A DNA stretch of 64,000 nt from Chrysomallon squamiferum (taxonomy: Eukaryota; Animalia; Mollusca). The stretch covers positions 25,854,001 to 25,918,000 of the forward strand of contig CM022677.1 in assembly GCA_012295275.1 (NCBI GenBank), read 5' to 3'. Positions within the stretch are counted from its first letter, which is position 1. Every line of letters begins with the position of its first letter. Positions 24,282 through 25,676 of this stretch are shown here, one piece after another. The notes under the pieces are model-generated. The model saw nothing but the letters and a program-made list of their open reading frames with translations. It did no database searches and was not told the DNA's origin. Made by a program: the position numbers and the translations under genes.

Positions 24282-24349
24282 CTGACGAATCAAAACCATG
24301 GGTAAATTCATGACCAAGAATAAATCCCATTGAGGCCAAGTTGAAAAAT
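24282..24349 (-). CDS. M13 peptidase alternative active-site exon 13b: FFNLASMGFILGHEFTHGFDSS(G)
   Basis: TTTCCAG acceptor, G|GTAAAA donor, 68 nt, same phases (2/1) as exon 13a, intact GHExxHGFD; not in the supplied ORF frame. Confidence 0.85.
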
Positions 24350-24446
24350 CTGGAAACAAATTTTTACATCTTTTTTAAAACTTTTCTTTCTCACAATATC
24401 CAAAACTGGGTCCATCTGTTGTAACCTAGGTGACAGGACATTTTCC

Positions 24447-24483
<37 letters not shown>

Positions 24484-24924
24484 AACAAAACAAGATAAAC
24501 ACATTCACGTTTGGCTTGCTAAATAAAACATTTAAAATATTTTAAACTGCTTCAAACGTTTTTCTATCTCATAATGAAGTAAGATAATTGTGCCTTGAAA
24601 TAATAAAAGAGAAAAATGCTAACGAAACTCATCGCGTCTGCAGTAACATTACACAGACATACAAAGTAAACTGCTAATTTACAGCCGCCTTTGACACTGA
24701 GAAATTTATTCCGATTTTGTTTCCTAAATAATATGTGGGTGTCTAATGCATTAGAAACAGATTTTAGTGATAATAATGTAAGCAGTTTAGCTGTATGCGT
24801 TTTAATTTAGTGTAAGATTATAAATGTCTTGTTTACTGTTTACTTCTCTGTGTATATTTAACCTGATACTCCATGTAATTTATTATAAAATTATTATTGT
24901 TATTTTATTATTTATTTATTTAAC

Positions 24925-24971
<47 letters not shown>

Positions 24972-25608
24972 TTATTTATTTTTTCATTTTTATCAGTTAT
25001 TACCAATGCTTCAAAAGAATAAAACAAAAAACAAATTAATAAAATAAAATAAAAACTGAGAACAAGATGAGCTATAAACTGATTTCGTTAGCTGTCAGAA
25101 TCGACATTTCCCCAAGCTGTGAAAGGATAAGCATCAAGAAAAAACACAGCAGCCAAACAAACACAGCGAACCAGATAATAAATATTTTGTCTAATAACTT
25201 TACATATTTTTGGCCCGTACACAGAAATTTATACGGAGAGTGTGCGTAAATGGCCGAAGTTGCTAATGTTATCCGGGTGCATGTCCCTCCACCCCATCCC
25301 ACTCCCGAATTTTTTTTTTAGTCTAGAATGCAGGAAATCCCATAAATGCGAAAAATTCATTCAATTCATTCTGTTGAATTATTTTTTATTATTTTTTTCA
25401 AAAAATCGTCAAATCACCATTGCGTACGGGCCTTGTTAAAAAAAAAAAAACAATTTTTTTTTTTTGTTGTTATTATTTTTTATTTATTTATTTATTTATT
25501 TATTGCTGTTGTTGTTGTTGTTTATTTGTATCAAATTAATTAAAAATATGGGTATGGGTGTCTGGTAATCTGTAGTTTGCTAGCTTTGTCTAACGAGATA
25601 ACCTTCAC

Positions 25609-25676
25609 CTTTAATGTCAAACCCGTGTGTAAACTCGTGTCCAAGAACAACGCCTAAACCGGCAAAGTTAATGAGT
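25609..25676 (-). CDS. M13 peptidase active-site exon 13a: LINFAGLGVVLGHEFTHGFDIK(G)
   Basis: CTTTCAG acceptor, G|GTGAAG donor, 68 nt, HExxH zinc motif. Confidence 0.92.

What the first reader, a model, noticed from the sequence alone, without database searches (positions are those of the whole stretch)
24282..25676. Duplicated, apparently mutually exclusive HExxH active-site exons in an M13 peptidase
Seen: two exons 1.26 kb apart, both exactly 68 nt, both phase 2/1 with canonical splice sites and no stops. Exon 13a reads LINFAGLGVVLGHEFTHGFDIK and 13b reads FFNLASMGFILGHEFTHGFDSS. The LGHEFTHGFD core is identical in protein while many third positions differ (GGA CAC GAG TTT ACA CAC GGG vs GGT CAT GAA TTT ACC CAT GGT), the pattern expected from purifying selection on both. 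Because 68 is not a multiple of 3, including both or neither frameshifts. Established: in neprilysin the residues just before HExxH (M579, V580) line the S1' pocket; here they are V-V versus F-I. Inference: one gene swaps its zinc-binding helix by splicing to make two peptidases with different specificity. I am not aware of this being described for M13 enzymes, but cannot search.
Basis: partly seen in the sequence, partly recalled or inferred. Interest (0 to 1): 0.82.

Follow-up and report, generated by a model that had tools for sequence, protein, structure and literature searches.

The report
Mollusc peptidase with two catalytic exons
A neprilysin-type peptidase gene of a mollusc (likely a snail) carries two old, intact copies of the exon for its zinc-binding catalytic helix, only one of which fits the reading frame at a time, so splicing likely yields two enzymes whose substrate pockets are predicted to differ.

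Summary
Observation confirmed. A 17-exon M13 peptidase gene on the minus strand has two 68-nt copies of its HExxH exon (13a 25676-25609, 13b 24349-24282). Either copy gives the same-length 774-aa membrane protein; both or neither give an early stop. Only this exon is duplicated. The copies share three rare residues, so they are likely sisters. Synonymous sites are saturated (pS 0.84, pN 0.25; 7 synonymous and 0 replacement differences in the 10-codon core), and a copy left neutral since duplication gave this pattern in 1 of 240,000 simulations. Nine residues differ, including S1' pocket positions 579/580 (V-V against F-I). Not shown: splicing. No RNA holder was listed and no close relative was reachable. 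Distant mollusc homologues show one exon type each (69 of 72 records carry the motif), and 0 of 95 other animal M13 loci hold a second same-strand copy. Active-site mutually exclusive exons are known (coq-2, ACSL6); ten literature searches found none for M13. Verdict: a real, likely functional exon pair; the specificity switch is inferred.

The parts
37728..37866 (-). Exon 1, start codon and cytoplasmic tail (predicted)
   Evidence: In frame with the rest, GT donor
36089..36228 (-). Exon 2, single transmembrane helix (about residues 64-84)
   Evidence: Hydropathy peak and open frame
35015..35209 (-). Exon 3, start of ectodomain
   Evidence: Pfam PF05649 E 3.3e-11
27564..34357 (-). Exons 4-11 (34357-34229, 33678-33502, 31825-31646, 30472-30383, 29903-29773, 29259-29037, 28592-28416, 27667-27564)
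   Evidence: AG/GT ends, continuous frame; model 44-46% identical to mollusc homologues over its length
26977..27087 (-). Exon 12, VNAYY motif and S1' residues matching neprilysin I558/F563
   Evidence: PF01431 positions 1-28; motif comparison
25609..25676 (-). Alternative exon 13a: HEFTH helix with V579-V580
   Evidence: PF01431 24.6 bits
24282..24349 (-). Alternative exon 13b: HEFTH helix with F579-I580
   Evidence: PF01431 23.4 bits
22754..22878 (-). Exon 14; holds the early stops when both or neither copy is included
22071..22229 (-). Exon 15, ENIAD motif with the third zinc ligand
   Evidence: PF01431 E 4.3e-11
21133..21209 (-). Exon 16, VW and the His...Arg pair spaced as neprilysin H711/R717
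19989..20088 (-). Exon 17, coding part to the stop codon

Best explanation
Exon 13 of this M13 peptidase gene is present twice, and the two copies are likely spliced one at a time to give two 774-residue membrane peptidases with the same zinc ligands but a predicted different S1' pocket. Shown: the duplication, the frame rule, the constraint on both copies, and the residue differences. Inferred: an old in-place duplication of the exon alone; splice-site competition chooses one copy, and transcripts with both or neither would be removed by nonsense-mediated decay (stop 334 or 351 nt before the last junction); 13a (V579-V580, as in human ECE-1) would give a roomier pocket for bulky P1' residues and 13b (F579-I580) a tighter one, changing peptide preference or inhibitor sensitivity.
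For: Either copy gives an intact 774-aa frame; both or neither truncate at 653 or 602 aa. pS 0.84 against pN 0.25, Fisher p 6e-5; core codons 11-20: 7 synonymous, 0 replacement differences. One copy neutral since duplication reproduced the pattern in 1 of 240,000 runs over 12 settings; both constrained reached 7 or more synonymous codons in up to 611 of 3000. The copies score alike against a profile of 148 distinct M13 peptides (44.5 and 44.1 bits) and Pfam (24.6 and 23.4 bits). Shared rare residues A575 (4 of 148), L581 (7 of 148), F585 (4 of 148). No other exon is duplicated in 64 kb and the introns are not alike. Splice-site scores of both copies lie within the range of the gene's constant exons. 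M579 and V580 line S1' (PMC11997989 passage); ECE-1 has V-V there.
Against: No junction read for either copy. No conservation shown: each of 14 groups of distant mollusc homologues shows one exon type, apart from single-residue variants. The 13b acceptor is weak (1.3 bits, second lowest of 16). Both copies rank low against the family profile (11 of 148 peptides score lower). The simulation does not exclude recent loss of one copy. S1' substitutions in the family are mostly conservative and S2' is predicted to matter more (PMC2259306). Pocket-size reasoning rests on recalled side-chain volumes, with no structural model.
Confidence: 0.55

Rival explanations
1. Both exons are used one at a time, but the isoforms cut much the same peptides; the pair is kept for tissue or stage regulation, or for differences in stability or rate.
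For: All changes at pocket positions are hydrophobic for hydrophobic; V580 (97 of 148) and I580 (31 of 148) are both common and position 579 is highly variable. PMC2259306 reports a relatively invariant S1'. The other S1' residues and S2' lie in constant exons.
Against: F579 is rare (4 of 148) and the pair differs by about 77 cubic angstrom in recalled side-chain volume. Two fully redundant copies would not be expected to stay constrained until synonymous sites saturate (inference).
Confidence: 0.22
2. Only one copy is used now. The other was constrained until recently, either as a lost alternative or because the gene is a chimera of two old paralogues joined by an offset crossover that left both exon 13s.
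For: Pairwise pN/pS records history, not present use. The 13b acceptor is weak and purine-rich. No second exon type in other molluscs' protein records.
Against: Neither copy has a stop, a length change or a broken splice site, and they score equally. No paralogue remnant in the 64-kb window. GC at third positions shows no step at exon 13.
Confidence: 0.18
3. Assembly artefact: two haplotypes or two paralogues merged in a repeat-rich region.
For: The introns are rich in microsatellites. No read or contig was seen to span both copies.
Against: The copies are 43 of 68 nt identical with unrelated flanks, too distant for alleles. A merge would have to duplicate this one exon and nothing else.
Confidence: 0.05

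Closest known systems
C. elegans coq-2 exons 6a/6e (PMC8659336, passages read)
   Same: Mutually exclusive exons change two residues in an enzyme's active-site core; there the substrate switch is shown experimentally.
   Different: A prenyltransferase with shown splicing and function, and the same active-site residues in helminths, annelids and molluscs; here a zinc peptidase, exon holds the catalytic HExxH itself, splicing and function unshown, conservation not found.
Human ACSL6/ACSL1 gate-domain exon pair (PMC1543647, abstract read)
   Same: A short duplicated exon pair swaps a substrate-gating motif by a conservative change.
   Different: Other enzyme family; the exon does not carry metal ligands; conserved across mammals.
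Homologous MXEs near catalytic sites, such as fly CG42249 (PMC7954323, passages read)
   Same: Tandem-duplicated exons with variable residues at functional sites; 9 events in that set affect catalytic sites.
   Different: The words peptidase, protease and neprilysin do not occur in its main text, nor M13 gene names in 6 held supplements; supplements not held as text were not seen.
M13 peptidases: human neprilysin and ECE-1; mollusc 'ECE-like' clade (Aplysia XP_012944252.1, Patella, bivalves)
   Same: Type II membrane layout, VNAYY, HExxH, ENIAD; 44-46% identity to the mollusc clade, tree support 99.
   Different: Homologues show one HExxH exon type; 13a has the ECE-1-like V-V, 13b keeps the clade's F572, S576 and I580.

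Membership tests
M13 (neprilysin) peptidase | Peptidase_M13_N and Peptidase_M13 domains | tested here: met
   Pfam hits on exons 3, 12, 13a, 13b, 15
M13 (neprilysin) peptidase | HExxH, ExxxD zinc ligand, NAx(Y) motif, His/Arg pair | tested here: met
   residue roles from PMC2259306 and PMC11700742 passages
M13 (neprilysin) peptidase | Type II membrane topology | tested here: met
   One hydrophobic segment at about residues 64-84; prediction by hydropathy only
M13 (neprilysin) peptidase | Peptidase activity | not testable with these tools
   Needs expression and assay
Homologous mutually exclusive exons | Adjacent homologous exons of equal length, phase and frame with canonical splice sites | tested here: met
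Homologous mutually exclusive exons | Only single inclusion keeps the frame | tested here: met
Homologous mutually exclusive exons | Both exons seen in transcripts, never together | tested here: inconclusive
   No RNA holder listed; three added RNA runs laid nothing on the part tested
Homologous mutually exclusive exons | Pair conserved in related species | tested here: inconclusive
   Only distant molluscs (44-46% identity) reachable, as protein records; one exon type each
Homologous mutually exclusive exons | Enforcing mechanism (steric, U12, RNA pairing, or decay) | tested here: inconclusive
   1259-nt intron excludes steric hindrance; both GT-AG; no specific duplex; decay is predicted only
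True ECE orthologue (ECE-1/Nep3 group) | Groups with ECE-1-type sequences in a tree | tested here: inconclusive
   Groups with a mollusc clade apart from the Lymnaea/Tyrophagus pair; no vertebrate ECE-1 was in the tree

The most novel reading that the evidence does not exclude
The first M13 peptidase, in the literature searched, whose catalytic HExxH helix is exchanged by splicing: one mollusc gene makes a wide-pocket, ECE-1-like enzyme and a narrow-pocket enzyme in different tissues, a natural single-exon swap that isolates what the S1' wall contributes to neuropeptide specificity.
Probability: 0.45. Interest if true: 0.68.

Novelty: new variant of a known kind. Interest (0 to 1): 0.5.

Why it matters
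M13 peptidases diversify mostly by whole-gene duplication, and most invertebrate members have no known substrate. Two natural isoforms that differ in nine residues of the catalytic helix, on an otherwise identical protein, would test directly whether S1' or S2' sets specificity (PMC2259306 predicts S2'). It would also add a peptidase to the short list of enzymes whose active site is switched by splicing. The design itself is known, and the pair seems limited to one lineage, which caps the interest.

Tried and rejected
RNA: no RNA holder listed. One laying of four runs succeeded, on 22700-24880: three RNA runs laid nothing; the unlabelled run laid 4 short records, none over 13b's length or across both copies. 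This is no evidence either way, and 13a and exon 12 were never laid. No whole genome held. Homologue search with exon 10 alone found nothing. ESM Atlas gave no usable hit for exon 9. Earlier-findings look-ups by relatives, by sequence, near, and by the full word set were empty; one search returned unrelated micro-exon arrays. Exact look-up of two ORFs over the exons: not in the collection. Rfam: no match in the window. RNA pairing as the switch: complementary (AAT)n and (ATT)n tracts flank 13b, but the best duplex (-78.7 kcal/mol) is weaker than around 3 of the 13 constant internal exons tested; rejected as unspecific. No clear branch-point motif near either acceptor. Gene conversion between copies: rejected, third positions differ throughout. 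Second copies in 95 other M13 loci: none with HExxH on the same strand; a finer search gave 3 hits, one an inverted fold-back copy (L041) and two chance matches without HExxH. Only 56 of 95 loci have 1.4 kb on one side and 16 on both. The IQ-TREE run did not finish; FastTree was used with 37 of the 40 rows (P0316, P0329, P0202 dropped). No structure was predicted. Literature: ten searches found no M13 case; the one paper holding all three terms uses them in unrelated places. Subscription papers are mostly outside the library.

Full report
Observation. A pattern that demands the acceptor, N573, G578, GHExTHGFD and the donor matches these two places only, and none in 100 shuffles. They are 43 of 68 nt identical and 1259 nt apart.

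The gene. Exons read from the sequence join into a 17-exon frame of 774 aa with either copy, with one hydrophobic segment near residue 64-84. Pfam places exon 3 in Peptidase_M13_N and exons 12, 13a, 13b and 15 in Peptidase_M13. VNAYY, HEFTH, ENIAD and a His...Arg pair spaced as neprilysin H711/R717 are present, so an active enzyme is predicted. With both copies the frame stops at 653 aa, with neither at 602 aa, 334 and 351 nt before the last junction; by the usual rule (recalled) these would be decay substrates. No other exon has a second copy in the 64 kb, and outside the exon cores the flanking introns are not alike.

Relatives. A search with exon 3 and two follow-ups reached a clade of mollusc 'ECE-like' proteins at 44-46% identity. 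In a FastTree of 37 rows the window's protein falls in that clade (support 99), beside Aplysia (87, not starred). Earlier notes on this genome call it a snail; my tree agrees as far as Mollusca. Of 72 homologue records in 14 groups, 69 carry the motif, and each group shows one exon type apart from single-residue variants; 28 of 29 oyster records are identical there. These are distant species and protein records, which can miss alternative exons. A splice-anchored scan of metagenome contigs found 95 animal-type M13 loci with the same 68-nt exon. None has a second HExxH on the same strand, though only 56 have 1.4 kb on one side and 16 on both. So the 68-nt exon is the family's usual form and its doubling is uncommon.

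Are both copies kept by selection? Thirteen of 22 codons encode the same residue and 8 of those differ silently. pS is 0.84 and pN 0.25 (Fisher p 6e-5); codons 11-20 have 7 synonymous and no replacement differences. When one copy was left neutral from the duplication on, an intact core, intact splice sites, no stop and 7 or more synonymous core codons arose in 1 of 240,000 runs; with both constrained the synonymous count was reached in up to 611 of 3000. The finding was picked because the core is intact, and the test cannot exclude recent loss. Against 148 distinct M13 peptides both copies score alike (44.5, 44.1 bits) and both low (11 of 148 score lower). They share A575, L581 and F585, found in 4, 7 and 4 of 148, which points to duplication within this lineage. 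Among 14 mollusc homologues, 13b keeps the common F572, S576 and I580, and 13a keeps F574 and K592, so neither is simply the decayed one.

What differs. Aligned to neprilysin and ECE-1 chains and numbered from H583 (PMC2259306, section 10), 13a has V579-V580, as ECE-1 does, and 13b F579-I580. PMC11997989 (passage) lists F106, I558, F563, M579, V580 and W693 as S1' contacts. I558, F563 and the VW pair are neprilysin-like and lie in constant exons; F106 was not checked. Recalled side-chain volumes give 280 against 357 cubic angstrom for the two positions, neprilysin 303, so 13a is predicted to have the roomier pocket. Against a large effect: PMC2259306 finds S1' relatively invariant and predicts S2' as the main determinant, V/I at 580 are both common, and no structure was modelled.

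How exclusivity would be enforced. The intron is too long for steric exclusion and both copies use GT-AG. Microsatellite arms around 13b could pair but do so less strongly than around three constant exons. The 13b acceptor is weak (1.3 bits) and 13a's is average (7.0); both donors are average. The simplest reading is 13a as default, 13b switched on by a splicing factor, and decay clearing the rest. All of this is inferred.

What is missing. No RNA holder was listed and the one laying, over 13b and exon 14, was blank for RNA; this says nothing on expression. No genome was held, so paralogues and close relatives were not tested.

Comparison. It works like coq-2 6a/6e (PMC8659336 passages) and the ACSL6 gate exons (PMC1543647 abstract). 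PMC7954323 (passages) counts 9 MXE events at catalytic sites and never mentions a peptidase; 6 held supplements name no M13 gene. Ten searches found no M13 case, within an open-access library. PMC11700742 (passages) and PMC8791509 (passages) were read for residue roles and to rule out a prior report; other papers were seen as listings only.

Verdict. A real tandem exon duplication under long constraint, meeting the sequence criteria of mutually exclusive exons (about 0.77 that both are used); a specificity switch is the best single reading at 0.55. New variant of a known kind; interest 0.5.

Noticed in passing
window about 9950-5770, minus strand: An ornithine decarboxylase antizyme gene downstream of the peptidase (Pfam ODC_AZ on 7018-6887 and 5943-5770), with a TCC TGA T site near 9445-9439 that matches the recalled +1 frameshift motif. 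Rfam gave no match.
   Followed up: partly
window 26236-26979: Intron 12 holds several copies of a CA-rich unit, some beginning with the exon 12 donor sequence; the repeat seems to have copied the donor's intron side.
   Followed up: no
window 58160-58910: A tandem repeat keeps a 244-codon frame open on both strands; likely a minisatellite.
   Followed up: no
window 14080-15000, minus strand: Tandem unit that reads as a Thr/Ser-rich repeat in one frame; minisatellite or mucin-like exon, not tested.
   Followed up: no
L041:1700-2647: Long near-perfect inverted repeat that includes an M13 HExxH exon, with small indels in the arms; looks like a fold-back assembly or amplification artefact.
   Followed up: partly
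L061:2911-2985: An exon of the bivalve type of this mollusc clade (SVNFGSFGMICG...), with no second copy in the 2.4 kb down to the next exon; only about 300 nt upstream are held.
   Followed up: partly
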